A stretch of 58,626 bases of DNA from an uncultured Spirochaetaceae bacterium (GTDB lineage Bacteria; Spirochaetota; Spirochaetia; Treponematales; Treponemataceae): the NCBI GenBank assembly GCA_902772975.1, contig CACYCX010000116.1:1-58626 (forward strand), given 5' to 3'. Within the stretch, counting starts at the first letter, position 1. The number at the start of each line of letters is the position of its first letter. This document shows positions 1 to 21,271 of this stretch, piece after piece. A program made the position numbers and the translations under genes. The notes below the pieces were generated by a model. The model searched no databases. It worked only from the letters and a program-made list of their open reading frames with translations, and was not told the DNA's origin.

Positions 1-295
1 CCTTGTAAAACTTATCTTGAGTCTTTCCTTTTTTATCTCCGCCGGTAAGCAAAAAAGCTTTCCTCTTGGAATCAAAATAATAGGAAACTCTCAAAAGATG
101 TTGTTGAGTCTGATTTCTTAATTCTTTCAGGTTCTTATATTTTTTTGAACCATGAAGAACATCTGCATAAGGACGAGGAAGATTTGGGCCGTACTGTTGT
201 AGTAAAAGAACTCTTTGCAAAACGGCCTCTTTACTTTCATCGTCCAATGCTAAAAACCAAGCATCGAATTCATCTGATGAATCTACATTCCACAT
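1..295 (-). CDS. Type II toxin-antitoxin RelE/HigB-like (Gp49-type) toxin, partial (3' end runs off the window)
   Basis: Manual minus-strand translation from ATG 295: MWNVDSSDEFDAWFLALDDESKEAVLQRVLLLQQYGPNLPRPYADVLHGSKKYKNLKELRNQTQQHLLRVSYYFDSKRKAFLLTGGDKKG... It shows the GPxLxRPYAD, KNLKELR and LLxGGDK motifs typical of the family. Not in the ORF track because there is no stop in the window. Confidence 0.88.
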   Translation of the reverse strand, partial: MWNVDSSDEFDAWFLALDDESKEAVLQRVLLLQQYGPNLPRPYADVLHGSKKYKNLKELRNQTQQHLLRVSYYFDSKRKAFLLTGGDKKGKTQDKFYK

Positions 296-330
296 AAATT
301 ATTATATGAACTAAAGTGAATATTTGTCAA
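296..330 (-). promoter_or_regulatory. sigma70 promoter of the toxin gene (probably leaderless)
   Basis: Minus strand TTGACA (330-325), 18 nt, TATAAT (306-301), 5 nt, ATG; no Shine-Dalgarno. Confidence 0.7.
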
Positions 331-376
331 TAAGAATAAATATGGGACTTTTAAATAAGTCATATATCTGTTTATG

Positions 377-401
377 TGATATAATATTAAATATTCAGGA
401 G
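377..401 (+). promoter_or_regulatory. cas9 extended -10 promoter and RBS
   Basis: TGaTATAAT at 377-385; AGGAG at 397-401, upstream of ATG 411. Confidence 0.6.
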
Positions 402-410
402 ATTGTTGGT

Positions 411-3400
411 ATGAATTGCGGAAAGTGGCGTTTAGGCTTAGATTTGGGGACAAACTCAATTGGGTGGAGTGTTTTTTCATTAGATGATGATAATAATGTT
501 TTAGAACTTAAAGATATGGGTGTCAGAATTTTTTCTGATGGGCGAGATCCAAAAACAAAAGAACCTCTAGCTGTTGAACGTAGGACGGCACGGTCTCAGC
601 GAAAATTGTTTTACCGGAGAAAACTCAGAAGAAAGCAGACCTTCAGGTTATTACAAACGCAAGGACTTTTCCCAAAACGAAAAGAAGATTGCTTAAAACT
701 GAAATCTGAAGATCCATATTTATTTAGGATAAAGGCACTTGATTCAAAACTTGAACCTTATGAACTTGGTCGTGCATTATTCAATCTTGCTGTTCGAAGA
801 GGTTTTAAAAGTAATCGTAAAGACGGAAGTCGAGAGGAACTTTCTGAAAAGAAAACTACAGATGAAATCAAGTCTCAGTCGGATATGCAAACTAATCTTG
901 AAAAAGCCATCAGAGAAAGTGGTTGCAGAACTATTGCAGAATTTCTTGTTAAAAATCAAAAAGAAAATGGTGGTTTACGATTTGTTCCTGGAAGAATGAC
1001 TTATTACCCAACTAGAAAAATGTACGAAGATGAATTCTTCCAGATAAAATCAAAACAGATAAAGTATTATTCGAACATTGACTGGGATGCAATTTATAAA
1101 TCAATTTTCTATCAGCGTCCCTTGAAAGCTCAGACTCGCGGATATTGTATTTATGAAACTGATAGGGAAAGAACATTTAAAGCTATGCCTTGTTCTCAGA
1201 AACTCAGAATTTTACAGGATATAAGAAATCTTGCTTATTATGATTCAGCAAAACAAAAAAAAGAATTGAACTGTGATCATGATAAGATTTTATATGAATT
1301 ATTGAATTCAAAAGATAAAGTAACTTTTGATCAGATGCGAAAAGCATTGAACTTGTCAGAAAATATTACTTTTAATCTTGAAGAAAATCGTGATTTTCTT
1401 ATTGGAAATCCAACAGCGGTAAAGATGCGGAGTAAAAATCGCTTCGGAAAATTGTGGGATGAAATTCCGCTTGAAGAGCAAGATAGAATTATTGAGACAA
1501 TTATCACAGCTGATGAAGATGAGCAGGTTTATAAAGTAATTGAAAAGTATTCACTTTCTGAAGAACAAAGAAATTTCATTGTAGAGAATACAGTTCTGCA
1601 AGCTGGCACTTCAATGCTTTGTAAAGAAGTTTCAGAAAAACTTGTTAAACGGATGGAAGAAATTACAGATTTAAAGTTTCATGATGCAGTTTCATCGCTT
1701 GGATATAAGTTTTCTGACCAGAGCATAGAAAAGTGTGATTTATTGCCATATTACGGAAAGATTCTTACCGGTTCTACAATGGGTGTAAATCTTTCCGAGC
1801 CGGAATCAAATCCCGAAAAACGATATGGTAAAATCAGTAATCCTACAGTTCATGTTGCATTAAATCAGACCCGTGTCGTAGTTAATTCTCTGATTAAAGA
1901 ATATGGGAAGCCTTTTCAGGTTGCAATTGAATTAAGCCGTGATTTGAAAAACAGTGTAAAAGAAAAAGCTGAAATTTCAAGGAAACAAACTCAAAGGGCA
2001 AAAGAAAATATTAAAATAAATGAATCAATTTCAGATTTATATCATAAGGCTTTTCCTGGAAAAACATTTTTCCCAAACCGTACTGACCGTTTAAAATATC
2101 GTTTGTGGGAGGAATTGGGATTAGGAAATAAATGTCTTTATTGTGTTAAAGGAATAACAGCATCAGAATTATTTACAAAGGAAATTGAAATTGAACATAT
2201 ATTGCCTTTCAGTCGAACGCTTCTTGATTCAGAACATAATTTAACTTTAGCACATTCTTCATGCAATGCATTTAAGGCCGAACGTTCTCCTTACGAAGCC
2301 TTTGGCTCAAATCCTCAAGGTTATAATTGGAATGAAATTGTAACCCGTGCAAATCAATTAAAAGATGCATCTAAAAAGAATAAATTTTCTCCAACTGCAA
2401 TGGAAAGATTTGAAAAAGATTCAAGCTTCATCACCCGCCAGCTTACAGATAACCAGTACATTTCAAAAGCTGCTTTGCGGTATTTAAAATGTCTTGTAGA
2501 TAATCCTGCAGACGTATGGGCAACAAATGGAAGTATGACAAAACTTCTTAGAGATAAATGGGCAATGGATTCTATACTTTGCCGTAAGTTTACAGAAAAA
2601 GAAGTTGCTGCACTCGGTTTAAAACCTGAACAAATTGGAAACTATAAGAAAAACCGATATGACCACAGACATCACGCGGTTGATGCAGTTGTAATAGGAT
2701 TAACAGACAGAAGTCTTGTACAAAAACTTGCTAACAAAAATTCTCATAAATCAAACCGAATTGAAATACCTGAATTTCCTATTTTACGAGCAGATTTAAT
2801 TGAAAAAGTTAAAAATATTATTGTAAGTTTTAAGCCAGATCATGGTGCAGAAGGTAAGCTTTCTAAAGAAACACTACTTGGAAAAATCAAATTACACGGA
2901 AATGAAGTATTTGTTTGCCGCGAAAATCTTGTTTCTCTTTCAGAACAAAACCTTGATGACATTGTAGATGAAAAAATCAAACAAAAAGTAAAAGATTATG
3001 TATCAAAGCATAATGGCGAAAAAATTGATTCTATACTTACAGCATTTTCTCAAGAAACAGGTATTAAAAAAGTTCGTTGCAAAAATCGCGTTCAAAAGCC
3101 TATAGAAATAACCTCTGGCGAAGTGCCTAGATATTTAGCTCCAGAAGATTATTTTGCAGCTATAATTTGGGAAATACCAGGCGAGAAAAAATCTTACAAA
3201 GCGCAGTATATCAGACGAAATGAAGTTGAAAAGAATTCAAATGGTAAGAATGTCGTAAAACAAGATGTTTTGGAATCTGGCAAACCGCACCCAGCGGCAA
3301 AACAGATTTGTATGTTACATAAAGATGATTATTTGGAATTTAGTGATAATGGAAAATTGTATTTATGTAGAATTGCAGGATATGCAGCAACAAGTAATAA

Positions 3401-3590
3401 ACTTGACATTAGACCAATTCATGCGGTTACATATTGCGCAGACTGGATTTACTCAACAAATGAAACAATGCTTACTGGATATTGGAAACCTACTCCTGGA
3501 CAAAACTGGATATCAGTAAATGTACTATTTTCACAGCTTCAAGCTCATCCAGTTACAGTTTCTCCGATTGGAAAGGTTTTCAGAAAATAG
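411..3590 (+). CDS. cas9: Type II-C CRISPR endonuclease Cas9 (~1059 aa)
   Basis: RuvC-I GLDLGTNSIG, Arg-rich bridge helix (RRTARSQRKLFYRRKLRR), RuvC-II IELSRD, HNH EIEHILPFS...N...CN, RuvC-III RHHAVDA. Followed by cas1-cas2 with no csn2 or cas4. Start moved from 324 to 411 on RBS and motif position. Confidence 0.97.
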   Translation: MNCGKWRLGLDLGTNSIGWSVFSLDDDNNVLELKDMGVRIFSDGRDPKTKEPLAVERRTARSQRKLFYRRKLRRKQTFRLLQTQGLFPKRKEDCLKLKSEDPYLFRIKALDSKLEPYELGRALFNLAVRRGFKSNRKDGSREELSEKKTTDEIKSQSDMQTNLEKAIRESGCRTIAEFLVKNQKENGGLRFVPGRMTYYPTRKMYEDEFFQIKSKQIKYYSNIDWDAIYKSIFYQRPLKAQTRGYCIYETDRERTFKAMPCSQKLRILQDIRNLAYYDSAKQKKELNCDHDKILYELLNSKDKVTFDQMRKALNLSENITFNLEENRDFLIGNPTAVKMRSKNRFGKLWDEIPLEEQDRIIETIITADEDEQVYKVIEKYSLSEEQRNFIVENTVLQAGTSMLCKEVSEKLVKRMEEITDLKFHDAVSSLGYKFSDQSIEKCDLLPYYGKILTGSTMGVNLSEPESNPEKRYGKISNPTVHVALNQTRVVVNSLIKEYGKPFQVAIELSRDLKNSVKEKAEISRKQTQRAKENIKINESISDLYHKAFPGKTFFPNRTDRLKYRLWEELGLGNKCLYCVKGITASELFTKEIEIEHILPFSRTLLDSEHNLTLAHSSCNAFKAERSPYEAFGSNPQGYNWNEIVTRANQLKDASKKNKFSPTAMERFEKDSSFITRQLTDNQYISKAALRYLKCLVDNPADVWATNGSMTKLLRDKWAMDSILCRKFTEKEVAALGLKPEQIGNYKKNRYDHRHHAVDAVVIGLTDRSLVQKLANKNSHKSNRIEIPEFPILRADLIEKVKNIIVSFKPDHGAEGKLSKETLLGKIKLHGNEVFVCRENLVSLSEQNLDDIVDEKIKQKVKDYVSKHNGEKIDSILTAFSQETGIKKVRCKNRVQKPIEITSGEVPRYLAPEDYFAAIIWEIPGEKKSYKAQYIRRNEVEKNSNGKNVVKQDVLESGKPHPAAKQICMLHKDDYLEFSDNGKLYLCRIAGYAATSNKLDIRPIHAVTYCADWIYSTNETMLTGYWKPTPGQNWISVNVLFSQLQAHPVTVSPIGKVFRK

Positions 3591-3638
3591 TTTTCCTTCT
3601 GCAATCATAAAATTAGCTGTTTATGCCGATAAATAAGT

Positions 3639-4559
3639 GTGCTGAATAGATTGTTGGAGATTGCAGAAGAAAATCGCTATCTTTCTCTAAAGCGTGGCTT
3701 TATTGTCGTCCAGCAAGGTGAACAGGAACTTGGTTCTGTACCGTTGGATGATATTGCCGTTTTATTGCTTTCGGCACAAGGCGTCACAATAACAAAAAAT
3801 GTTTTAAATGCTCTTGCAGAAAAAGGTTGTATAACGATTTTTTGTGGGGCAAATTACATTCCTTTGAGTATGGTTTTGCCAATTGCCAGTCACACATATT
3901 TTACAAAAATCATAAAAACACAGATAAATGCGACAGAGCCATTTAAAAAAAGAATATGGCAGCAAGTTGTAATTCAGAAAATAAAAAATCAGGCATTGAG
4001 CTTAAAATATTGTTATAAAGAAAAAGATGTAAAACTTATTGAGAAAATTTCATCTATGGTAAAATCAGGAGATCCAGATAATCGAGAGGCTTATGCTGCA
4101 AAAATTTATTGGAAAGCATTGTTTGGTGATTCTTTTGTAAGGGATAAAGATGGAGTAGGAATAAATGCATTTTTGAATTACGGCTATGCGATTATGCGAG
4201 CAGGAATGGTAAGGGCAATTTGCTCACATGGTTTGATACCTTCTTTGGGCGTTCATCATGACAATAATCTAAATCAATTTTGTCTGGCAGACGATTTATT
4301 TGAAATCTACAGGCCAATAGTTGATACATTTGTTTATAAGCTTATAGAAAAAGGTGAAACTGAATTAAAGCCGGAAAACAAGAAAGTTTTGGCAAGCCTA
4401 TTAAAAGTGAAAGTTCGTACTTCCGAAGGTGAAAGTCCTGCAGTTCAAAGTATGCAATATATGGCTTCTTCTTTTGTAAATGCATTGGAAGTTGGAAAAC
4501 CTGATATTGAGTTACCGATTTGGGAAGGAAATGAAGATGGAATTACCATTGTTGAATAG
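3639..4559 (+). CDS. cas1: Type II CRISPR-associated Cas1
   Basis: NREAYAAKIYW, NAFLNYGYAIMR, LGVHH..N.FCLADDLFE motifs; position after cas9. Confidence 0.96.
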   Translation: MLNRLLEIAEENRYLSLKRGFIVVQQGEQELGSVPLDDIAVLLLSAQGVTITKNVLNALAEKGCITIFCGANYIPLSMVLPIASHTYFTKIIKTQINATEPFKKRIWQQVVIQKIKNQALSLKYCYKEKDVKLIEKISSMVKSGDPDNREAYAAKIYWKALFGDSFVRDKDGVGINAFLNYGYAIMRAGMVRAICSHGLIPSLGVHHDNNLNQFCLADDLFEIYRPIVDTFVYKLIEKGETELKPENKKVLASLLKVKVRTSEGESPAVQSMQYMASSFVNALEVGKPDIELPIWEGNEDGITIVE

Positions 4560-4872
4560 GTATGAGCTTATGTGGATGATAGTTTTATTTGATTTACCTG
4601 TCGTTGAGAAGAAAGAACGAAAAGAGGCTACGAAATTTAGAAATTATCTTTTGGATAATGGATTTTCAATGATTCAATATTCAATTTATACAAAAATGTT
4701 TTCCGGTAAAGATGCCTGCGAAAAATACTACAAAATGATAAGACAAAACTTGCCAGCAGAGGGAAAAGTAGATATTATAACTATTACGGATAAACAGTAT
4801 GGAAATATTATCAGCTATCAAGCTGCAGAGAAAATTGAAAAAAAACAGCAGGAACAGCTCGTTTTGTTCTGA
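4537..4872 (+). CDS. cas2: CRISPR-associated Cas2
   Basis: MWMIVLFDLPV, FRNYLLDNGFSMIQYSIY, ITDKQY motifs; exact start uncertain (4531-4570). Confidence 0.95.
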   Translation: MELPLLNRYELMWMIVLFDLPVVEKKERKEATKFRNYLLDNGFSMIQYSIYTKMFSGKDACEKYYKMIRQNLPAEGKVDIITITDKQYGNIISYQAAEKIEKKQQEQLVLF

Positions 4873-4881
4873 TTTTTTGAC

Positions 4882-4942
4882 AAAAAAAATACGTCTGACG
4901 CAACTTAATTCTATACAACAAAAGGAATTGCATCAGACATAT
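4882..4942 (-). terminator. Intrinsic terminator for minus-strand crRNA transcripts
   Basis: 17-bp arms at 4889-4905 and 4926-4942. All 3 mismatches become G-U pairs only in minus-strand RNA, and the stem is followed by a U8 run (A tract 4882-4889). Confidence 0.7.
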
Positions 4943-5372
4943 TATAACTGATTAATTTTTCCGGTCAACCTGCAACAAGTAGTTGACGGTGACGTTCTGT
5001 TCGGACATTATAACTGATTAATTTTTCCGGTCAACCTGCAACAAGCATGAGATTAAGCAGAATTGTATAAGCATTATAACTGATTAATTTTTCCGGTCAA
5101 CCTGCAACATAAAGCCTGTTATATCGCTTTTTAATTGAATTATAACTGATTAATTTTTCCGGTCAACCTGCAACAAAAAAATCACTTTCCATAAAAGAAA
5201 AGCAATTATAACTGATTAATTTTTCCGGTCAACCTGCAACAGAGCGTTAATCTTTTCATTCGCCTCGTCCATTATAACTGATTAATTTTTCCGGTCAACC
5301 TGCAACCTTTGGAACGTTGCTGCCAATCTCGTAATAATTATAACTGATTAATTTTTCCGGTCAACCTGCATC
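4941..5372 (-). CRISPR. CRISPR array: 7 x 36-bp repeats, 6 x 30-bp spacers
   Basis: Repeat ATTATAACTGATTAATTTTTCCGGTCAACCTGCAAC (+) at 4941, 5007, 5073, 5139, 5205, 5271, 5337; the last ends TGCATC (degenerate). The minus-strand form GTTGCAGG...GTTATAAT is typical of II-C crRNA orientation. Confidence 0.98.
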
Positions 5373-5846: not shown

Positions 5847-7142
5847 ATGAAAAAAGTCATAGTGCCAGTGTTGTTGCTCGTAACAGGATTTTCAGTTTTT
5901 TCTCAATCACAAGATTTGTACAAAAGAGAATTGCCTGAGATTCCAAAATCTTCTTCAGCTGATACTAGCGGTAGTTGTAAGGCAAATGATATTTCGACAT
6001 TAAAAGTCGATGACAAAATCCATTATATTGAAATTTCTTCAATCGAAAATATCGGCTTGATTCAGGTTGCAGCGATAAGTGATTTTGAAAATCTGATTTC
6101 TGAAAAAAATATTACGACACTTTACTGTCTTTATTCTGAAGGCAAAAATAGACTTTATGCGATTTCTGATAATGCAGGCTTTTGTCTTGATATCGGGTAT
6201 TATAAAAATCTGGCTGATATAGCAAACGGTTTTAATTCCGGTTACGAAAACGGAAAAGATTTTTATGAATCGAAAAACTTGAACATCACTAAAGCGGATG
6301 TTTACTACTATTATAAAGCAAATGATTTTTCTTCAGTTGAAGACTGTTATGATGCCTGGAATAACGAGTTTTTCTTTGTTCCTGATGAAATGAAAAATCA
6401 TTATGATGACCAGCCAAAAAAGAAATTGAGCGAAGTTTATTATGCGGCAAAAGAAAAAGGATTTTCGACTTATGCTGATTTTGCGGAATATCTTTTTTAT
6501 ACAAAATACGGATTTAAGAACAAGAAAGATTATTTGAGTGCAAAGGAAACTGGTTTTTCAGATGGTGGAAGTTATTATTACGCAATTGAAAATGGATTTG
6601 ACTTTGGAAAGGATTACTATCTTGCAAGTTCTGTTGGAATAAAAAATTTTGAGTCATATCAGAATTGGGCTCAGATGATTTGTGATATAGAAAAAATTTG
6701 TAAAACCAAAAGCTTTGATAAAAAGTATGGTTCAATTTATTATTTTCTCCAGTCTCTTCCAAAAGACGATTATTCAGTAAATGCGCTTTCTAACACGATT
6801 AAAGAAAATATTTTCCAAATGGATTCAAATATTATCCGCGCTTTGAATATGTATCTGAATAATATTGAGCGTGTTGATTCATATGAATATAAAATATCAA
6901 ACAAGCGGTATGGCGAACGGATAACTTTAATAGATGAAATTGTCTCAACTGAATCAATTATGAATTTTATTGAGAATGCTGATGTAAAGCCGCTCGGTTC
7001 ATATAACGCGAAAACTGATATTTTTAAGAAAAAACTTCAGCTGGATACAGGAATCAAAGGCAATATAAAAGATATTGAAAATATTCCTCTTTATACGAGA
7101 AAGGTTGCGCCTGCTTCAGCAGGAAATTCCAGTGCGCAGTAA
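5847..7142 (+). CDS. Secreted/periplasmic hypothetical protein with internal 14-aa GF-x5-Y repeats
   Basis: Sec signal peptide MKKVIVPVLLLVTGFSVFS; GGGAG RBS; repeated GFxxxxDY units. Confidence 0.75.
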   Translation: MKKVIVPVLLLVTGFSVFSQSQDLYKRELPEIPKSSSADTSGSCKANDISTLKVDDKIHYIEISSIENIGLIQVAAISDFENLISEKNITTLYCLYSEGKNRLYAISDNAGFCLDIGYYKNLADIANGFNSGYENGKDFYESKNLNITKADVYYYYKANDFSSVEDCYDAWNNEFFFVPDEMKNHYDDQPKKKLSEVYYAAKEKGFSTYADFAEYLFYTKYGFKNKKDYLSAKETGFSDGGSYYYAIENGFDFGKDYYLASSVGIKNFESYQNWAQMICDIEKICKTKSFDKKYGSIYYFLQSLPKDDYSVNALSNTIKENIFQMDSNIIRALNMYLNNIERVDSYEYKISNKRYGERITLIDEIVSTESIMNFIENADVKPLGSYNAKTDIFKKKLQLDTGIKGNIKDIENIPLYTRKVAPASAGNSSAQ

Positions 7143-7251
7143 AAATCATCCATCCTCCGGTTAGCCATCCTTGCTTTTGATTCGTATAAATAAGTGAGAG
7201 CGGACTGCGGGCGCGGAATGCATAACCGCGGAGCTTTATGAGGAGGGCATT

Positions 7252-7506
7252 ATGAACAAGGTAATCGAATTAAATGAGATGGAACTGGACGGAATCGTAG
7301 GCGGCAACATTTTTGAGGATGCGTGGGATTGGATTTCGGGAGATGCATGGGATTTTGTCAAAGATACTGGAAGTAAGCTTTGGGACAATTTCAAAGAAAA
7401 GTTTTGGGAGAAAGGAATAAAGGAAACATTCTGGACCGGCCCAAAAAAAGTGGTTGAAGCTTTTGGTGACATAATCGAGATTATCTGGAAAGAGTTGAGC
7501 AAATGA
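7252..7506 (+). CDS. Double-glycine-leader peptide precursor (bacteriocin-like)
   Basis: Leader MNKVIELNEMELDGIVGG fits the EL-x3-EL-x2-I-x-GG consensus; strong RBS GAGGAGG; own terminator. Confidence 0.8.
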   Translation: MNKVIELNEMELDGIVGGNIFEDAWDWISGDAWDFVKDTGSKLWDNFKEKFWEKGIKETFWTGPKKVVEAFGDIIEIIWKELSK

Positions 7507-7531
7507 AATTATGTGGCATGTTTATTTGAAT

Positions 7532-7565
7532 GGTTCCTGTTGCGAAATGCAGGAGCCTTTTTTTT
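7532..7565 (+). terminator. Rho-independent terminator after the peptide gene
   Basis: GGTTCCTGT-loop-GCAGGAGCC followed by T8. Confidence 0.8.
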
Positions 7566-7684
7566 ATCCGGGCTCAATTGAAAAAAAGTTGCGCTTATCA
7601 ATTCAAGGGGAATATTTGTCAGGCTCTTTTTTTTCTTTATAATTCGTGGTACAATCACTTTATAGATATTGGAGATTTTGATTT

Positions 7685-9718
7685 ATGAGTGATGATTTTA
7701 GGCCACACAAGCCAAGGGCAGTACTTGAACCTGGAACGCTGGAAAATACAAGGCGCAATATCGGTCTGATTGATGCAGAAGAAGCTGCTAAGATGACGAA
7801 AATTTTAGGCGGCGAAATCTTAACTGAAAAATCAGTTCCTATCGATTATTCAAAACTCCCAAAACGCCCGATTCAACGAAATCATGTCGCAAGGGCAACC
7901 GGTAAGACAAGTGCGTCCGGTTCTGTTCCGTCATCAGCAGGTGCAGCTCTTTCTTCTACTCATAAGGAAGAGCCAAAAAAGAATGTTACCCGTACAGCAA
8001 ATCTCCCTTCAATTTCATCTAAAGACAATCAGCTTATTGATAAGCTCATGATGTCTCCTGAATACGGCATTAAGAAAAATTACGGCTTTTTGAATTTCTT
8101 AAAGGGAATCCAGAAGGACGGAAGGGAACGCTTTATTCCTGAATTCGCTGAAATTACGCTTAAGTGTCATATGGAACACATCAATGCATTTATCACAGTA
8201 ATGAAGACTTTTATTCAGCTTGCGCCTGATACATACAAAGCAAAAATACAGAATGAAACTGAACTCAAATTCAAATTCCTCAGGACAGTTGCAGCATGGT
8301 CAACGCGTGACATTAAGCTCACTTATATAAATCTTGAAACACTCAAGGGAAATGTTGTAGTAGCCGATTTGATTCCGTTTGTAAAAATGACATACCGGCT
8401 GATTATAACTGTTTTGTATTTAGGTGAAGCGACAGTAAACAGGCTTGTACGCGAAATTTATACTGACATGATAAAATATCCTAAGGCAGATCAGGAAAAA
8501 TTTTCCAAGCTTTCAAAAGAAGCGCTTACCGAATGGATGTACATTTATGTAAAAATCGCTCGCGGAATGTATCCCCTTTTGATGCGTATGTGCGGAACTC
8601 CTTACGAGGAATTTAACCGTTTCTTTGTAACGCAGATTTCAACAGTCCTTAATTTTGTGGGACTTAAAAAATTTGATATTCTTCTCCCGGAAAAAAAGGT
8701 TGATCCTGAAGCAATCAAAAAGGCAAGGGAAGAGGAAGAGCGGAAAGCCAAGGAAGAACAGAAAAAGCGTGATGAGGAAGAAGAGGCGCGTCTTAAAAAT
8801 GATATGGTTGATACAGGCCTCAACCTTCTTGATAAGCTTTTCCCGCAGGCTGGATTTTTGCATCTGGACAGCTTCCCTGATTTGTACGGCTATTTTGATC
8901 CGCTGTATGATTTTGATGATGAGTTTGTTTATGTTGCGCCGGAAAATCCGATTCAGATAACGCTTGTGCTTGCAAGAATTATAGAGGATTTCCTGAATGC
9001 AACCCACAATATGAAATTTGAGCCTGAACAGAACGAAGCGCTTACTGATCCGCGCGATAATTTTGTTACTGCAATCGGAGAATGGCCGTTATACCGTGAA
9101 GATTTGTTTGATAAAAAATATGCGCCTTCATTAAAGCAGCTTGTTGACCAGACATATACTCAGGCAAATTTCGGACAGACTCAGGTAGGAAAAAAAGTAA
9201 TCACAGATTTGTACTGGATGACAAAGTGGAACTTTTTGCCGCAGTTTACATTCGACCAGCTTTTGCTTGAGCGTCCGATTAATGATAATAAATACATAGC
9301 GCTTAACATGCGTACTTCATTTTTCCGCAGGGCGTTTACATATCTTACCCAGCAGATTGCGTCGGCTGAGGCATCAAAGGGTTCTGTTGGCGGACTTGAA
9401 AATCCGTGGGAGCACTACCAGTTTGACTTTCCGTCACCAGTCAGCCGCCGCCTTGATGTCCTCTTGAATGGAAAGAATAAGGGCGCGAATTGTACGGCGA
9501 CAAACGCAAACCTCATAAAATATCTTGTCTGCATCGTATCTGTGCTTGACTGGTGGGTAAATGCAAAGGGAAGCCCTGCGTATAAGACTGACCCAAAGCA
9601 TATTTACCGTACTATGCCTGGTTCAAATGAACCGGCGTTTTCTGTCGAAGCGCGTAACGATCAGGATAAGCTTTTTGCCGAAGCCATAAAAAACAGCGTT
9701 CAGAAAAAAGCAGAATAA
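7685..9718 (+). CDS. Hypothetical cytoplasmic protein with central charged coiled-coil segment
   Basis: 677-aa ORF, GGAG RBS, EAIKKAREEEERKAKEEQKKRDEEEEAR; no family recognised. Confidence 0.75.
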   Translation: MSDDFRPHKPRAVLEPGTLENTRRNIGLIDAEEAAKMTKILGGEILTEKSVPIDYSKLPKRPIQRNHVARATGKTSASGSVPSSAGAALSSTHKEEPKKNVTRTANLPSISSKDNQLIDKLMMSPEYGIKKNYGFLNFLKGIQKDGRERFIPEFAEITLKCHMEHINAFITVMKTFIQLAPDTYKAKIQNETELKFKFLRTVAAWSTRDIKLTYINLETLKGNVVVADLIPFVKMTYRLIITVLYLGEATVNRLVREIYTDMIKYPKADQEKFSKLSKEALTEWMYIYVKIARGMYPLLMRMCGTPYEEFNRFFVTQISTVLNFVGLKKFDILLPEKKVDPEAIKKAREEEERKAKEEQKKRDEEEEARLKNDMVDTGLNLLDKLFPQAGFLHLDSFPDLYGYFDPLYDFDDEFVYVAPENPIQITLVLARIIEDFLNATHNMKFEPEQNEALTDPRDNFVTAIGEWPLYREDLFDKKYAPSLKQLVDQTYTQANFGQTQVGKKVITDLYWMTKWNFLPQFTFDQLLLERPINDNKYIALNMRTSFFRRAFTYLTQQIASAEASKGSVGGLENPWEHYQFDFPSPVSRRLDVLLNGKNKGANCTATNANLIKYLVCIVSVLDWWVNAKGSPAYKTDPKHIYRTMPGSNEPAFSVEARNDQDKLFAEAIKNSVQKKAE

Positions 9719-15196: not shown

Positions 15197-18100
15197 GTGA
15201 AAAAAATCAGGAATTATTTAATTTTTCCGCTTGTAGTTTTTTCATCATTATGCGCAAATTCATTCTCGGAGCAGTGGCGCTGGAAAAACGACGGCGTTGA
15301 CGGAAGCTGGACTGACTCCGGGGTCTGGGAAAGCAGCTCGCTTGGAATTACATGGAGCGATTCTGACAGTTACCCTGACAGCTCAAGCGATACGGTTTAC
15401 CTGAGGGGAACTTCTGATACGGTAATCACAATACCGGCCGGAAAAAATATTTCTGTCGGCTATCTTGCAATGAACACAGATGCATCGTCCGGGAACGTTA
15501 CAATTACGGTTAACGGAAGTCTTTCAGTAAATTATCTTTATACAAACTACAAGGACGGAAGCTCAGGAAATTCAACTTTAGAAATTAACGGAGAAGCCTC
15601 AGTAACTAACTTCCGCGTAAAGATGAAGGGAACTGAAAAAAATGATTCTTCAACTTCAACCGGAAAAGCATATGTAAGCATTGCGTCAGGAAAAACTCTT
15701 ACCGTTACGAATTTCTGCATGGCGGCCGGTAATACTGCAAAGGCAAATACTTACATCGGACTGGCAGGCGCCGGAACTTTAGAGGCATCAAAATTTGATT
15801 TTCCAGAAAACTATACTCACGAAGTAAACATCAGCTCCGGCTCAACATTTAAAATTACCGGAAGCTTTATGGGTGACTCAAACACAGCCGGAAACATGAA
15901 ATTTACCGGAAGCGGAAATTTATATGTTCCTGCAAGCGGCGCCGATATGGGCTATGGTGAAATAATCGGACCGTCTTATGCATCTACGCTGAAAATATAT
16001 CCTTACGGAACGCCGTCGTATTATACAGTTTCTGTTTCAGGTCTTAACGGTTTTTCAGAATCATCGCCTGTTTCGATTGAAGTTACACGCGTTGTAGACA
16101 GCGCAAACCGCAAGGCAACAGTTCATTATCCCTACGAAATAATTGATGTGACATCAACTGCCACTGCGGTTTTCAGCTTTAACGGAACGGACGGAATTTC
16201 TTCAGGAGATACGGGAACGCTTGATCTTGATAAAAATACCGGCTCTGATACTTTTGAAATAAGCGTTAGCGATGGGATGGCGGAAAATGACGGATTTAAA
16301 ATTAAGATTCTAACTCCAGATAAATCGCGAGTGCTTGCCGAAGTAGAATGGTACAAGGGAAAACTCATCTGGACTGGTTCTGCATCGTCGGCTTGGGAAA
16401 ATGAAGATAACTGGTCTGGACTTGAAGCCGGTAAAACGCTCGCTGAAAATCTTGAAGGAAAAGACATCGTAATAAATTATGCTGTTTCAAACATGCCGTC
16501 AGTTTCAAGCGGCACATACAGCATAGCCTCGCTTGAGGTAAAATCAAATGCAAGCGTAAATTTAACAGGCGGAAATCTTTCGTGCGATGTTCTGACGCTT
16601 GCTGATTCTTCGGGGCGCGCCGTAATAAGCCAGAGCGGCGGCACGCTGACATTAAAAGAAGCGCACATAAACGGAAATTCGTCGTTTGCTTCGACATCTG
16701 GTACTGTGGTTATGGCGGGAAGCGCGCCGGTATTGGATGCGAATAAAAACGACAGCGCGGAATTTTATAATCTTACGATTGAATCAGGCGCGACCTTTTC
16801 ACCAGCCAAAACGATTACGGTAAAGGGAAGCCTTGAGAATAACGGCAATTTTAATCCGACAGGTGTGTGCTCGGTTGCCGGAAAGCTTTTGAATTACGGG
16901 AAGGCGGCGTTTAATCAGCTTGATTTTACTGGAACGCAAATTGTTTTTGGAGATGACAGTTCAGATACTTTTAAAATAAGCTCAAATGCTTTTTCAGTTT
17001 CAGCAGGAATTACCGTAAAGGCCGCAGGAAGGCTTACATTTACAAAAGGCTTTTCCTGTTCAAGTGCGATTGATTTAACTGCCGATACTACTGTTATAGT
17101 TCCTTCTTCATACAAGGCGGTTTTTTCCGGTGAGGTTAACAGCGCAACAAGCGGAGAAAGCAAGCTTGTTCTGGGGAATTCTTCAAATCCGACTGAATGT
17201 ACTTTTGAAGCTGGAATCGGAAAGTCGCGTGAATTAAAATCATTTACACAGGGAACAGGCGTAATTGAATTTTCTGCGGGCGCTGTCGTAAATACAAAGC
17301 GTGAACAAAATTATAATGCAAATGTAAATGCTGCCGGAGCGCTTTCTTTAAAGACAAGCTCATCATCAAATGGAAAGATAATCATAAAGGGCGGAACCAT
17401 AACTACAGGCGGCTCTTTCACTGTTATAAACGCAGGCATGTTCGACTTACAGGGAGATGCCTTAATTACCGTTTCAAGCGGCATGTTCACACAGACAGGA
17501 AATGGAAGCATTCAGTGTGCAGGAAACATAACTTCGACAAACGGAATATCATTCCGCAAAGACGCCTATCTCTATAGCAGTACCGGCGCTGGCGAAACTT
17601 CCATGACGCTTAACGCATCAAGCGGTGCTTCTTCATCTTCAGTCCCCAAAATAAATGCAGGCGGCACGCTCTATATAGCCGCGGCTTCTTCAAAAGAAAT
17701 TATTTTAATGTCACCGGTCAATGCTGTAAATTTTGTGCTTGCCGGCGGAAAAGTTTCGCCAGACGCCTCCGGTTCACAATGCACGGGAATTACAGCTACA
17801 AAGGATATCGTTCTTTTTGGTTCAAATTATTCTGAAGATGATACAGGTACCGGCGGTTCGGGGGTGACCGGGCTTTTTAAATATAATCATGCGCTCAGGA
17901 CAAGCGACAATCTTTGCGCAACGGTAAACGCTACGATTCAATCAAAGCGGCCGGACGGAACTTCAATTTCGTACAACGCAGGCTCGTTTACTTCGCTTTC
18001 AGGAAAGACGCTTAGTGCAGGAAAAAATTTTTATGCAAACGGAATTGATTTAAATGGCGGCGCTGAAGGCTGGACGCTTACGATTTTAAATACGAACAAT

Positions 18101-21100
18101 GCAAAACAATGCTTTGCCGAAATGTACAACCTTACGGTAAGCGGCTGCTCGGCTTCGTATTTTGTAAGCGCTGCGGAAGGCTGTACGGATGGTTCGGGAA
18201 ATACGAACATAGATTTTTCGCGTCCGGTGATTGCAGCAAATGATTCTTCAAAAGCAACACAGACTGGCGGAAGCGCCGTTGAGACTTCCAATTTAAGCGG
18301 AACTTATACTTTGTTTGATGACATAATCAGGATTGAGTTTAAAGATTCTGTAACCGGTGCATCAAAAAAAATTGAGAACACGAATAATGAAATTTCTAAG
18401 GCAATCGAAAATGCCGGAATAAAATTCAGCGGCGGCTCGTATAATTTTTCAAGCGCGTACATCGATGCAAACTGTACGGTTTCGACAGACGGCAAAGGCG
18501 ATCTGTCTGTTTTCTATCTTAAGGCATCGCGGAAATGGAATACGGACGCGACAGGCTCTTCAATCGGAAACGCCGACAGCTCTGATACAACCGCAGCGCA
18601 TTCTGAATTAAAGCCTGATATTTATTTACCAAAGGCGCTTTCGACCTTGTATGCCTCGCTGCGTGATGAACACAAAAACCGCGTGGCCCATTATGCATCA
18701 AGTCCGGCGGGAAGCTCGTTGTTTACAGGAACGGCAGACAGAACGCCGCCTTCGCTCGTTGCGGTAAGGCTCGGACAGGAGCTGCATGATTCAAATCTTT
18801 CGTCGCAGAAAGCTTACGATGCGCATAATTTTATTGAGCTTCAGTATTCCGAGCCTGTCGATTTGGGAGCTCTTTTACACGACGGTTCGGGATATGTAAA
18901 CCTTACGCCGCAAGCTTCCTTTACTTCTTCATCAAATTACGGCGGACTTATTTCAAACGACGCGACGGGATTTTCAATTGCAGGATACTGTTCAATTTCA
19001 AAAGGCGCAGTTCATACAGGTTCGCGTACAAAAGAAAATTCCGTCACATCTGAAAATCTGAACGTAAATTCACTTTACAGAAATTTTTCCATTACGCCGG
19101 GCGGAACGGAAGCGGTGCAGCCTTGCAGATTGAGGATAAGCGTTGCAGGTTACAAGGACGGCACTGTAAATGTAAACGGAACTTCGCTTAACTGGTGGCC
19201 TGGCTTTATCAGGAATACGACTGTTTCTCCTGAAGGCGGAATAGTTACAAGAACTGAAAATAATTTTATCATTGCGGCTGGTTATGGCGGACCTTCATCA
19301 GAAAATCATCTGGCAGTCTCTGGAAGCGGAAGCCGTGTTCTTCCTTCAATTACAGTTGATGCAGAAGAATCAGGCTTGTTCGGACCATGGGATTTGTCGC
19401 CGCCGTCAGTTGCGCATTACATCAAGGAAACTCAATGGAGCGAAAGCCATCCGTTTAAGGAAATCCTTCCGGTTGACCTTACGAATGCCGGATATGTAAA
19501 TTCGTTTGAGCTTCATATCCTTGATAATACGCCGGCATATTCTGCAAGTGATGCGTATCAGTGGTACACGCGTGAAGGCTGGTATGCCGGTTCTTCCAAG
19601 ATGAGCGTTGTTTCCGGGGAACCGCTTGATTTCAGGGGCGGCTCAAAAATGCAGGACGGCACGAACAAGACTAACGGCGGCCTCAGGACTTCTTCGCTTT
19701 ACAATTCGATTGGCGCATTTTCGTACCGCGACAACACGACAAATTACGACGGAAATGTTACAGGTGAATTTTATCAGAAGACAACCGTTGCATCGTTCTT
19801 TGGAGACAGCGGCTCACTTGAATATGACATCCCGTACATCGGATTAAAAATTACGGGACGCAGCTCTGATATTACTTCTGATGATTATTTGATTTCGTAC
19901 AGGGGAAACGCACAGCAGAACGGATTTGTAACTGACCTTGCCGGAAACCTGCTTGCTGATTTTGTGAACTTTGAGGCGCCTGACAAAAACCCGCCGAAAT
20001 TTTCGCTTTCAATTGCGCCGCTTGATTCAAGTAAAATTTACATCCTTTTTTCTAAGCGCATAAATTACAAGTCAACTGGTGCTGAAGAAAAAATCGTCCG
20101 CTCGCTAAGGCTTGTTGATTCTTCCGATAACGATACAAATTTGATTGACTGGGACAACGGTTCGAGAATCCTTACAGGAAAGACAACTGATACTGCACGT
20201 GCAACTGGATTTGTAATCACGCTCGCGAACGATGCCTGCCTTACTTACGAGCAGATTAAAACATTAAAGCTTAAGGTTAACACATTCCCCGGCATGGATC
20301 CGGTAACAGGCGGAAGCGGCAACTTCTCGCAGATTTACGACTGGTATGACAATCCTGTGCCGGCTGCAGACAGTCACAGAATCACAGACTTTGCAGTGAA
20401 TGTGATTGATGTTAATTACGCATACGACGGACGGAACAGTGATACGGCAATGCTTGGTAAAAATCTTATTACACCAGACGAATGGACTGTCCGTGATTTT
20501 TCCGGTTCCGGGCTTAATACAACAAAAGTCCTTTCTGAAAAAGATGTGTCCGTCGTATGCAGCGTGAACAAAAATGCAGCCGGCACAATCGCCGACGAGA
20601 TTGAGATGCGCCTTGATATAAATCCGACATCAGGCTGTAACGGCGATAACTTTACGCTCAATTCAGGAATCAAGACGCGCCTCTGGATAAACGACATGCT
20701 GGAGCCGTTCTCGACAATCGCAAATACTTCTTCTTCATGCAAGGCGCTTTTGCCGGAATCATGGAGCGGCACAAATGATAACGGGATCCGCCATTTTATA
20801 ATTCCGAATAGTCCCACGACAAACGGAGCATATTTGTGGCCGGTTGGTTCTGAGATACAGTTTACATTCAAGATTAATGATTCTACACTTTCTGAACCGT
20901 TGTATGCAGCGCGCCTTAAAGATTCAAGTGATATAACAAGCATTGATTTGTGGTCAATGGAAATTGCATCAGTTACAAAGCAGCGCGGCGGCGTAACTAT
21001 CCTTAATAATGTAATTGATGTGAATACGCGCGAAAAATGTACGGTGCTTGTTGACATGCCAAAGAGCGGCCGGCTTAATGTTATCGTGATGACGCTTGAT

Positions 21101-21271
21101 GGAAGCATCGTCAAATATTTGTGCAACGGTAATGTGGAAGCGGGCGAGCGCCTTTTCTATTGGGATGGAACGAATAAAAGCGGAACGCCTGTTGCGCGCG
21201 GCCTTTATTTTGTTCGTGTCGTCGGCCCGGACATAGACGAAACGCGTAAGGTCATGTGCGTGAAGGAATGA
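15197..21271 (+). CDS. Large secreted/surface protein (beta-rich passenger-like body, C-terminal FlgD-Ig-like domain)
   Basis: Signal peptide; Ser/Thr/Gly/Asn-rich beta repeats; WTG....W....NW motif; C-terminal GSIVKYL...WDGTNKSGTPVARGLYFVRV. Confidence 0.8.
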   Translation: MKKIRNYLIFPLVVFSSLCANSFSEQWRWKNDGVDGSWTDSGVWESSSLGITWSDSDSYPDSSSDTVYLRGTSDTVITIPAGKNISVGYLAMNTDASSGNVTITVNGSLSVNYLYTNYKDGSSGNSTLEINGEASVTNFRVKMKGTEKNDSSTSTGKAYVSIASGKTLTVTNFCMAAGNTAKANTYIGLAGAGTLEASKFDFPENYTHEVNISSGSTFKITGSFMGDSNTAGNMKFTGSGNLYVPASGADMGYGEIIGPSYASTLKIYPYGTPSYYTVSVSGLNGFSESSPVSIEVTRVVDSANRKATVHYPYEIIDVTSTATAVFSFNGTDGISSGDTGTLDLDKNTGSDTFEISVSDGMAENDGFKIKILTPDKSRVLAEVEWYKGKLIWTGSASSAWENEDNWSGLEAGKTLAENLEGKDIVINYAVSNMPSVSSGTYSIASLEVKSNASVNLTGGNLSCDVLTLADSSGRAVISQSGGTLTLKEAHINGNSSFASTSGTVVMAGSAPVLDANKNDSAEFYNLTIESGATFSPAKTITVKGSLENNGNFNPTGVCSVAGKLLNYGKAAFNQLDFTGTQIVFGDDSSDTFKISSNAFSVSAGITVKAAGRLTFTKGFSCSSAIDLTADTTVIVPSSYKAVFSGEVNSATSGESKLVLGNSSNPTECTFEAGIGKSRELKSFTQGTGVIEFSAGAVVNTKREQNYNANVNAAGALSLKTSSSSNGKIIIKGGTITTGGSFTVINAGMFDLQGDALITVSSGMFTQTGNGSIQCAGNITSTNGISFRKDAYLYSSTGAGETSMTLNASSGASSSSVPKINAGGTLYIAAASSKEIILMSPVNAVNFVLAGGKVSPDASGSQCTGITATKDIVLFGSNYSEDDTGTGGSGVTGLFKYNHALRTSDNLCATVNATIQSKRPDGTSISYNAGSFTSLSGKTLSAGKNFYANGIDLNGGAEGWTLTILNTNNAKQCFAEMYNLTVSGCSASYFVSAAEGCTDGSGNTNIDFSRPVIAANDSSKATQTGGSAVETSNLSGTYTLFDDIIRIEFKDSVTGASKKIENTNNEISKAIENAGIKFSGGSYNFSSAYIDANCTVSTDGKGDLSVFYLKASRKWNTDATGSSIGNADSSDTTAAHSELKPDIYLPKALSTLYASLRDEHKNRVAHYASSPAGSSLFTGTADRTPPSLVAVRLGQELHDSNLSSQKAYDAHNFIELQYSEPVDLGALLHDGSGYVNLTPQASFTSSSNYGGLISNDATGFSIAGYCSISKGAVHTGSRTKENSVTSENLNVNSLYRNFSITPGGTEAVQPCRLRISVAGYKDGTVNVNGTSLNWWPGFIRNTTVSPEGGIVTRTENNFIIAAGYGGPSSENHLAVSGSGSRVLPSITVDAEESGLFGPWDLSPPSVAHYIKETQWSESHPFKEILPVDLTNAGYVNSFELHILDNTPAYSASDAYQWYTREGWYAGSSKMSVVSGEPLDFRGGSKMQDGTNKTNGGLRTSSLYNSIGAFSYRDNTTNYDGNVTGEFYQKTTVASFFGDSGSLEYDIPYIGLKITGRSSDITSDDYLISYRGNAQQNGFVTDLAGNLLADFVNFEAPDKNPPKFSLSIAPLDSSKIYILFSKRINYKSTGAEEKIVRSLRLVDSSDNDTNLIDWDNGSRILTGKTTDTARATGFVITLANDACLTYEQIKTLKLKVNTFPGMDPVTGGSGNFSQIYDWYDNPVPAADSHRITDFAVNVIDVNYAYDGRNSDTAMLGKNLITPDEWTVRDFSGSGLNTTKVLSEKDVSVVCSVNKNAAGTIADEIEMRLDINPTSGCNGDNFTLNSGIKTRLWINDMLEPFSTIANTSSSCKALLPESWSGTNDNGIRHFIIPNSPTTNGAYLWPVGSEIQFTFKINDSTLSEPLYAARLKDSSDITSIDLWSMEIASVTKQRGGVTILNNVIDVNTREKCTVLVDMPKSGRLNVIVMTLDGSIVKYLCNGNVEAGERLFYWDGTNKSGTPVARGLYFVRVVGPDIDETRKVMCVKE

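What the first reader, a model, noticed from the sequence alone, without database searches (positions are those of the whole stretch)
7252..7565. Orphan double-glycine-leader peptide with an anionic, Trp-rich 66-aa core
Seen: an 18-aa GG leader followed by a Cys-free core with 7 Trp, 14 Asp/Glu versus 10 Lys, repeated DAWDW/DAWDF/LWDNF/FWEK units and amphipathic periodicity. It has a strong RBS and its own terminator. No C39-peptidase ABC exporter, modification enzyme or obvious immunity gene is in the window. Known: GG leaders are cleaved and exported by PCAT transporters, and most class II bacteriocins are cationic. Inference: an undescribed spirochaete bacteriocin, signalling peptide or RiPP family served by a distant exporter, located next to a defence island. 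This is the strongest novel-system candidate in the window.
Basis: partly seen in the sequence, partly recalled or inferred. Interest (0 to 1): 0.75.

Follow-up and report, generated by a model that had tools for sequence, protein, structure and literature searches.

The report
Secreted peptide in a hidden regulon
This small gene of a gut spirochaete encodes an acidic, tryptophan-rich peptide with an export tag and shares a rare upstream DNA motif with five other tagged peptide genes scattered over the genome, so it is likely switched on by one dedicated sigma factor, likely cut and secreted by a distant pump, and possibly acts on neighbouring bacteria.

Summary
The ORF, composition, RBS and terminator are as described, and the amphipathic pattern beats shuffles. 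The gene is an orphan only locally. The genome holds one complete NHLM-type exporter (HlyD, C39-ABC, ABC; contig C44) headed by an ECF sigma gene, and nine GG-leader precursors. A bipartite motif, TAGCC-N15-TCGTATAA, lies 62 nt upstream of this gene. It occurs six times in the genome, each time before a GG precursor (0 in 11 simulations). In the genus it tracks the ECF gene (18 of 18 genomes against 21 of 320) and precedes the ECF's own operon in 13 of 17 other carriers. So this is likely one cargo of a dispersed, ECF-controlled peptide-export regulon. Acidity is no anomaly: most microcins are neutral or anionic. The core's start recurs in anionic Bacteroidales GG peptides. There is no immunity gene beside it, no defence-island link, and killing is untested. 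Earlier scan notes describe the sigma/leader-mimic module on other DNA, but not this peptide or promoter. Verdict: new variant of a known kind, interest 0.5.

The parts
7162..7189 (+). Bipartite ECF-type promoter motif TAGCC-N15-TCGTATAA (predicted -35 and -10 boxes), shared with five other GG-precursor genes of the genome
   Evidence: genus-wide
7241..7246 (+). Ribosome-binding site AGGAGG, 5 nt before the ATG
7252..7305 (+). 18-aa double-glycine leader (Leu-12, Glu-8, Leu-7, Ile-4, Gly-Gly)
   Evidence: consensus from PMC6363468
7306..7506 (+). 66-aa core plus stop codon: Cys-free, 7 Trp, net -4 (acidic first 20 residues), amphipathic helical periodicity; start shared with Bacteroidales-type GG peptides
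7532..7565 (+). Intrinsic terminator (9-pair stem, run of 8 T)

Best explanation
The gene is a stand-alone cassette (promoter motif, RBS, GG-leader precursor, terminator) that is likely transcribed by the ECF sigma factor encoded at the head of the NHLM-type exporter operon on contig C44, and its product is predicted to be cut after Gly-Gly by that exporter's C39 domain and secreted, through HlyD and a TolC-like channel, as an unmodified, anionic, amphipathic helical peptide that probably acts on the membranes of other gut bacteria like a class II microcin. Shown: the cassette, the leader consensus, the exporter genes, the shared motif and its co-occurrence with the ECF gene. Inferred: that the ECF reads the motif (about 0.85), that C44 cleaves and exports the peptide (about 0.85), that it stays unmodified (about 0.85), and that it is an antagonist entering through a receptor rather than by charge (about 0.5-0.6, the weakest step).
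For: The only C39 match in the genome is a full NHLM cassette over all three cut-offs (TIGR03794 282.6/156.2, TIGR03796 999/853.3, TIGR03797 765.9/709.4). Its Gln/Cys/His/Asp motifs are present, an ECF sigma is the gene before it, and TolC-like genes lie on three contigs. The strict motif has 6 hits in 2.47 Mb, all 6 before GG precursors, against 0,0,0,1,1 in 5 simulations (13-16-nt spacer) and 0 in 11 of 11 (15-nt spacer). A matrix trained on 37 sites from other genomes gives the same 6 hits above 14 bits and no others. Two more of the 9 precursors lie in the same direction behind a motif-bearing one. No sigma-70-like promoter precedes this gene. In 338 genomes of the genus, 18 carry the ECF and 17 of these carry TIGR03796. 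At least one 15-nt site is found in 18 of 18 against 21 of 320 others; two or more in 15 of 18 against 3 of 320. In 13 of the 17 other ECF genomes a site precedes a small peptide gene that lies before the ECF, the autoregulated layout of ECFs; CGTAT is also the -10 box given for the SigW group in the PMC7826278 supplement (passage). LahT150 cleaves short and long leaders using the last 13 residues and tolerates any core (PMC6363468, passages). Leader length, core length and charge fit class II microcins (PMC10233263, passages). A related Bacteroidales peptide lies 1.2 kb before HlyD and C39-ABC genes (L018).
Against: No immunity-like gene lies beside this or any of the 9 precursors, whereas class II microcins have one adjacent; bacteroidetocins lack one. 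The core is 36% charged, 12% Gly+Ala, with no hydrophobic segment, unlike the Gly/Ala-rich long-leader cargo of the same regulon. T. denticola GG proteins are secreted but showed no killing (PMC11879956, abstract and discussion). Of the 54 sites in other ECF genomes, 20 were not classed as GG, Nif11-like or ECF-operon; one of them is a GG precursor my pattern missed, others look like lipoproteins or secreted proteins, so the regulon is wider than peptide export. One precursor (C194) has no motif. In this assembly C44 begins 80 nt before the ECF, so the exporter's own promoter and the small peptide gene are not seen. The motif and its spacer were defined on this genome. The training sites were chosen by the same pattern, and kin are not independent, so the statistics overstate. 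The genome is 85% complete and a second exporter could be missing.
Confidence: 0.5

Rival explanations
1. Same promoter and export route, but the core is a signal or regulator. It is sensed by the periplasmic binding protein encoded behind the exporter, or it feeds back on the ECF regulon, and it does not kill.
For: A periplasmic binding protein (Peripla_BP_6) follows the second ABC gene in 14 of 16 exporter stretches examined. No immunity genes. T. denticola GG proteins are secreted without detected killing.
Against: The core is confined to this species and one 69%-identical cluster while the binding protein is conserved across the genus. Nine unrelated cores in one genome suit an arsenal better than one signal. 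66 residues is long for a pheromone (own knowledge).
Confidence: 0.2
2. Same export route, but the peptide is a non-toxic amphipathic surface or lipid-binding protein (membrane or vesicle coating, surfactant, cation binding through its acidic start), part of a cell-envelope regulon.
For: Strong amphipathic periodicity with no transmembrane segment. In other genomes the motif also precedes apparent lipoproteins and secreted proteins. 24 of 25 related Bacteroidales-type cores are anionic.
Against: In this genome all 6 sites precede GG precursors and none precedes an envelope gene. A structural role would be expected to be more widely conserved than 1 of 338 genomes.
Confidence: 0.15
3. The core is a RiPP precursor whose Trp residues are cross-linked in trans by the radical SAM/SPASM enzyme on C223.
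For: The core has a Trp-x-Trp motif; darobactin has an ether link between two Trp made by a radical SAM enzyme (PMC9055067, search listing only; the spacing is recalled). One SPASM enzyme exists in the genome.
Against: That enzyme sits behind its own Cys-containing GG precursor and a terminator-like hairpin. It scores best with Cys-rich-peptide maturases (202.9 bits) and far lower with DarW (49) or cyclophane models. It was found in 0 of 250 other genomes of the genus at E<=1e-40.
Confidence: 0.08
4. A recently acquired, functionless or decaying cassette, or an accessory of the neighbouring CRISPR-Cas9 locus.
For: No GG peptide lies before the downstream core gene in 29 other genomes. The gene sits at the edge of a low-GC stretch that holds cas9.
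Against: Promoter motif, RBS, frame and terminator are all intact. A homologue cluster at 69% keeps the leader, the first 16 core residues and the amphipathic pattern. Contigs of five runs from four studies cover parts of the ORF with no listed difference inside it (one may be the source).
Confidence: 0.07

Closest known systems
NHLP/Nif11 precursors with the NHLM export cassette TIGR03794/03796/03797 (Haft et al. 2010, PMC2887384, passages read)
   Same: The genome's exporter is this cassette. Several sister precursors have Nif11-like long leaders (4 PF07862 matches, 2 over cut-off). The paper already notes precursors distant from their export genes.
   Different: This precursor has an 18-aa leader and a charged, Cys-free core with no linked modification enzyme. 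'sigma' has 0 occurrences in that paper's main text.
Class IIa microcins (MccV system CvaC/Cvi/CvaB/CvaA/TolC; PMC10233263, passages read)
   Same: 18-aa GG leader, 66-aa core, anionic charge, PCAT + membrane fusion protein + TolC in a two-membrane producer.
   Different: No adjacent immunity gene, exporter on another contig, no disulphide, a far more charged core, and a three-gene NHLM exporter; activity untested.
LahT/LahA1-9 of Lachnospiraceae C6A11 (PMC6363468, passages read)
   Same: One tolerant PCAT serving nine diverse GG precursors; same leader determinants.
   Different: There the precursors are encoded in the exporter's cluster. Here they are spread over seven contigs and tied by a promoter motif.
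T. denticola TepA1-B1 and bacteriocin-type signal proteins TDE_0416/0422/0424 (PMC11879956 abstract and discussion; PMC4947327 abstract)
   Same: GG-leader proteins secreted by a spirochaete with ABC/HlyD exporters.
   Different: Clustered with the exporter and with lipoprotein genes, and no killing was detected. I did not compare their sequences with this peptide.
Unnamed Bacteroidales-type GG peptides (P0009-P0033; one beside HlyD and C39-ABC in Ca. Symbiothrix, L018)
   Same: Core begins with the same motif (6 with N[IV]FEDAW right after the cleavage site); anionic and often Trp-repeating.
   Different: 23-26-aa leaders of another type and unrelated C-termini. The similarity rests on about the first 10 residues, so homology or convergence is open.

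Membership tests
Double-glycine (PCAT/AMS) cargo | Leu(-12)-X3-Glu(-8)-Leu(-7), hydrophobic -4, Gly-Gly | tested here: met
   consensus in PMC6363468
Double-glycine (PCAT/AMS) cargo | Leader conserved in homologues | tested here: met
   all 5 homologues keep it
Double-glycine (PCAT/AMS) cargo | C39-ABC exporter with catalytic residues in the genome | tested here: met
Double-glycine (PCAT/AMS) cargo | Cleavage and secretion shown | not testable with these tools
   needs biochemistry or peptidomics
Class IIa microcin | 15-18-aa GG leader and core of 60-90 aa | tested here: met
   18 and 66 aa; ranges
Class IIa microcin | PCAT, membrane fusion protein and TolC available | tested here: met
Class IIa microcin | Immunity gene adjacent to the precursor | tested here: not met
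   terminator follows at once
Class IIa microcin | Precursor close to PCAT and MFP genes | tested here: not met
   exporter on C44, gene on C116
Class IIa microcin | Antibacterial activity | not testable with these tools
   bench test needed
NHLP/Nif11 (N11P) precursor | Long leader (GG near residue 70-83) matching TIGR03793/03798 or PF07862 | tested here: not met
   lengths
NHLP/Nif11 (N11P) precursor | Low-complexity core rich in Cys, Gly, Ser | tested here: not met
   0 Cys, 5 Gly, 3 Ser of 66
NHLP/Nif11 (N11P) precursor | NHLM three-gene cassette in the genome | tested here: met
Gram-positive class II / IIb bacteriocin (PF10439, TIGR03949, TIGR01847) | Match to the family models | tested here: not met
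   no match at E<=1; homologue P0006 only a sub-cut-off leader match to NF038035
Gram-positive class II / IIb bacteriocin (PF10439, TIGR03949, TIGR01847) | Adjacent partner peptide (IIb) | tested here: not met
   single gene between promoter motif and terminator
Radical-SAM-modified RiPP | Maturase linked to the precursor | tested here: not met
   sole SPASM on C223 beside another precursor
ECF sigma regulon member | Bipartite fixed-spacer promoter shared with the ECF's own operon | tested here: met
   motif before the ECF operon in 13 of 17 other carriers; not visible in this assembly because C44 ends there
ECF sigma regulon member | ECF-dependent transcription from the motif | not testable with these tools
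   needs start-site mapping or a reporter

The most novel reading that the evidence does not exclude
Gut spirochaetes run a genome-wide secreted-peptide library: any cassette that carries the ECF promoter and a GG leader plugs into one exporter. The ECF is held by a small co-encoded peptide that ends in a leader mimic and is removed by the exporter itself, an FlgM-like checkpoint. This gene is a recruited member of an undescribed anionic, Trp-repeat class of GG peptides whose starting module is shared across phyla with Bacteroidales, and which kills or signals by a charge-independent route. The promoter would then serve as a search key for orphan cargo.
Probability: 0.25. Interest if true: 0.75.

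Novelty: new variant of a known kind. Interest (0 to 1): 0.5.

Why it matters
GG leaders, NHLM exporters and distant precursors are known. What this adds is a testable link. One promoter motif assigns scattered orphan peptides to one exporter and one sigma factor, so cargo can be mined by promoter rather than by gene cluster. It also gives a first handle on why many Nif11/NHLM systems lack modification enzymes and neighbouring precursors. The core is a candidate anionic antimicrobial from cattle-gut spirochaetes, with relatives in Bacteroidales. I found no paper on this regulon. Searches: Treponema/double-glycine/bacteriocin/Nif11 (15 papers); NHLP/ECF sigma/double-glycine/regulon (0); ECF/PCAT/leader/promoter/rumen (0); ECF/promoter/AGCC/CGTAT/Spirochaetes (67, 20 listed, none on it by title or abstract start); Nif11/sigma factor/Lachnospiraceae/promoter/precursor (0); rumen/Treponema/bacteriocin/MAG/RiPP (3). 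Subscription journals are mostly not covered.

Tried and rejected
Family scans of the peptide: no Pfam match; NCBIfam only NF038167 at 12.3 bits against a cut-off of 32, on the leader. The phmmer search of 1.84 billion representatives gave only P0002 and two repeat-protein artefacts. The genus search (338 genomes) gave two weak hits inside unrelated long frames, and the 60-relative search three. The genome-collection scan with the window protein found nothing; with P0006 it gave L018 and one 10-residue hit, L019, which I did not follow up. I could not obtain the DNA context of the 69% homologue cluster, so its promoter and dN/dS are untested. AlphaFold gave three helices at pLDDT 47, too low to use. 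Foldseek against the PDB gave no match, and a PDB sequence search nothing below E 0.17. The ESM Atlas was unreachable. A complex prediction of the ECF with its small partner peptide was not available, so that binding is untested. The one RNA run (X15) had no contig on the gene but only shallow cover nearby, which is uninformative. A tenth leader-like hit on C51 is a YbaK deacylase and was dropped. A relaxed promoter pattern (98 hits against 60-81 simulated) is mostly noise. The 5' untranslated region has no notable structure (z -0.7). The ECF tree of 9 rows added nothing and is not used. The ECF could not be placed in a published group: the PMC7826278 supplement is cut in storage, has no TAGCC, and motifs drawn as logos cannot be read.

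Full report
Observation. The ORF at 7252-7506 encodes 84 aa: an 18-aa leader ending Gly-Gly and a 66-aa core with 7 Trp, 14 Asp/Glu, 10 Lys and no Cys. The RBS (7241-7246) and terminator (7532-7565) are real. The leader carries Leu-12, Glu-8, Leu-7 and Ile-4, the residues that PMC6363468 (passages) gives for PCAT recognition. The core is amphipathic beyond its composition (moment 0.41 against 0.22 +/- 0.05). Its acidity lies in the first 20 residues. The host is a spirochaete (three FlaA matches, 0 of 14 control genomes). Runs holding the DNA are mostly labelled bovine gut. The genus name Treponema is my inference and comes from no call.

Homologues. One other cluster exists among 5.8 billion proteins, with five members at 68-70% identity. 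All keep the leader, the first 16 core residues and the amphipathic pattern. No orthologue was found in 337 other genomes of the genus, and none of 29 other genomes has a GG peptide within 1.5 kb before the conserved downstream gene. The cassette is therefore lineage-specific. Contigs from five runs of four studies cover parts of the ORF with no listed difference inside it (one may be the source).

The exporter. The genome's only C39 match is on contig C44. The order there is ECF sigma, HlyD (TIGR03794), C39-ABC (TIGR03796), ABC (TIGR03797), periplasmic binding protein, PPTase and STAS protein, with the three NHLM models over cut-off. The C39 catalytic motifs are present, and TolC-like genes lie on three contigs. 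Nine small ORFs carry a GG leader, against 0 in 11 of 11 simulations. Five have long leaders of 66-97 aa, of which four gave PF07862 matches, and four have short leaders. Their cores differ, apart from two near-identical paralogues. A tenth candidate was a YbaK gene and was dropped.

The shared promoter. Reading the upstream DNA of the nine precursors showed one bipartite motif before six of them. As TAGCC-N(13-16)-TCGTATAA it has exactly six hits in the genome, all with a 15-nt spacer and all 62-93 nt before a GG precursor, this gene included (7162-7189). Simulations gave 0,0,0,1,1 and, for the 15-nt form, 0 in 11 of 11. A matrix from 37 sites of other genomes returns the same six above 14 bits and nothing else, with the window site at 29.5 bits (prefiltered on either box, training sites picked by the same pattern). 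Two of the remaining three precursors follow a motif-bearing precursor on the same strand; C194 has no motif. The scan found no sigma-70-like promoter before this gene, only one before the next.

Across the genus (338 genomes), TIGR03796 is in 35 and a close orthologue of the C44 ECF in 18 (E<=1e-45, my threshold), 17 of which have the exporter. Of 118 motif hits, 85 have the 15-nt spacer. At least one such site occurs in 18 of 18 ECF genomes against 21 of 320 others; two or more occur in 15 of 18 against 3 of 320. I read all 54 sites of the 17 other ECF genomes: 13 precede a small peptide gene that lies before the ECF, 14 a GG precursor, 6 a Nif11-like start without a GG in the 700 nt read (two of these are complete precursors), 20 other genes and 1 a contig end. 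Of the 25 sites in ECF-negative genomes, 7 lead to GG or Nif11-like genes. Of the 33 sites with other spacers I read 17; 0 of the 14 in ECF-negative genomes lead to a GG leader. Kin are not independent, so the Fisher values overstate. By one marker gene, though, the nearest genomes in a 60-genome sample (G026, G271, G013; 57-60%) gave no ECF match, while carriers G004, G022 and G247 are at 43-45%, which suggests a patchy spread. A fixed-spacer motif with CGT in the second box, sitting before the sigma gene's own operon, is what an autoregulated ECF promoter looks like (own knowledge; CGTAT is given for the SigW group in the PMC7826278 supplement). In this assembly C44 starts 80 nt before the ECF, and the small peptide is not found, so that link is seen only in relatives.

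The core. PMC10233263 (passages) gives class II microcins 15-18-aa GG leaders, 60-90-aa cores and mostly neutral or anionic charge, so acidity is not a surprise in a two-membrane producer. Unlike microcins, the gene has no adjacent immunity gene or exporter, nor does any of the nine precursors have an immunity-like neighbour. Iterated searches found Bacteroidales-type GG peptides whose cores start the same way: 8 of the 42 hits (two of them the spirochaete peptides) begin N[IV]FEDAW, 24 of 25 of the closest are anionic, and one lies before HlyD and C39-ABC genes. A core-only profile of 19 of them scores this core at 19.1 bits, against at most 11.4 for 1000 shuffles and 3.4 for 21 other cores of the regulon. 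Without the first ten residues the score falls to 6.9. The rows were collected with profiles seeded on this peptide, so the test is partly circular, and homology or convergence stays open. The sole SPASM enzyme sits beside another, Cys-containing precursor, resembles Cys-rich-peptide maturases and was found in 0 of 250 other genomes, so modification is unlikely. The CRISPR-Cas9 locus is 1.9 kb away with no sign of a link.

Mechanism. Shown: cassette, leader, exporter, motif and co-occurrence. Inferred: the ECF transcribes the dispersed precursors together with the pump, and the C39 domain, which in LahT needs only the last 13 leader residues, cuts after Gly18. The core then leaves through HlyD and TolC, and its Trp-lined helices insert into a target membrane after receptor-mediated access. 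The last step is the weakest: T. denticola GG proteins are secreted without detected killing. The small peptide before the ECF ends in a leader-like motif with Ala-Gly in place of Gly-Gly, matches no NCBIfam model, and in a 251-genome sample of the order was found only in this genus (2 genomes). It could be an export-removed anti-sigma factor; binding could not be modelled here. Earlier scan notes on other DNA propose the same coupling. They are unchecked AI notes and one of them prompted my look at the ECF; none covers this peptide or motif.

Verdict. A genuine gene and a likely cargo of a known exporter type. It works like a class II microcin precursor but fails that family's gene-layout tests, and it is not a Nif11 precursor. 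The dispersed, promoter-linked regulon and the anionic Trp-rich core class are the new parts: new variant of a known kind, interest 0.5.

Noticed in passing
window 324-5372: Type II CRISPR-Cas locus: cas9 (1088 aa), cas1, a cas2-sized ORF and an array with 66-nt spacing, in a low-GC stretch.
   Followed up: partly
window 2-295 (-): Gp49/DUF891 (RelE-like) gene running off the contig end; probably a toxin-antitoxin toxin.
   Followed up: no
window 7685-9718: 677-aa protein with no Pfam or NCBIfam family over cut-off, present in 59 of 61 genomes of the genus; in most relatives preceded by a conserved protein of about 360 aa that is absent from this position here.
   Followed up: partly
window 5847-7142: 431-aa ORF with a signal-peptide-like start and Tyr/Asp-rich repeats, no family over cut-off; no terminator found between it and the peptide gene.
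   Followed up: no
window 15197-21271: 2024-aa predicted secreted protein with a C-terminal FlgD-like Ig domain.
   Followed up: no
L003 1-6695 (G000:C223): The motif lies between divergent units: MATE + NRPS on one side; Nif11-like precursor, DUF7005, Cys-containing GG peptide and radical SAM/SPASM on the other. The SPASM gene's open frame is 411 aa, longer than the 364 aa I used.
   Followed up: partly
L002 7735-13790 (G000:C44): PPTase, STAS protein and a convergent NRPS ending in a reductase domain directly behind the exporter; not seen in the other 15 exporter stretches apart from one STAS.
   Followed up: partly
L084 5569-5787 and 13 similar loci (alignment A6): Conserved 66-80-aa peptide before the ECF, with a conserved N-terminal half and a leader-like C-terminal motif ending Ala-Gly; candidate anti-sigma factor.
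   Followed up: partly
L008 1166-1429 (G000:C117 4765-5028, -): Nif11-leader precursor (TIGR03798 over cut-off) with a 21-aa cationic, Trp/Phe-rich core, a good antimicrobial-peptide candidate.
   Followed up: no
L104, L107 (G138:C10, G296:C28): A second exporter subtype with a distant ECF (31%) before HlyD and short GG peptides nearby, without the motif.
   Followed up: no
L014 50-724; L018 8480-14685: Tandem Bacteroidales-type GG peptides; in Ca. Symbiothrix two precursors, HlyD and a C39-ABC in one stretch.
   Followed up: partly
window 7565-7619: One contig of run X4 replaces the 53 nt behind the terminator with 16 other letters; a variable spacer between the cassette and the next gene.
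   Followed up: no
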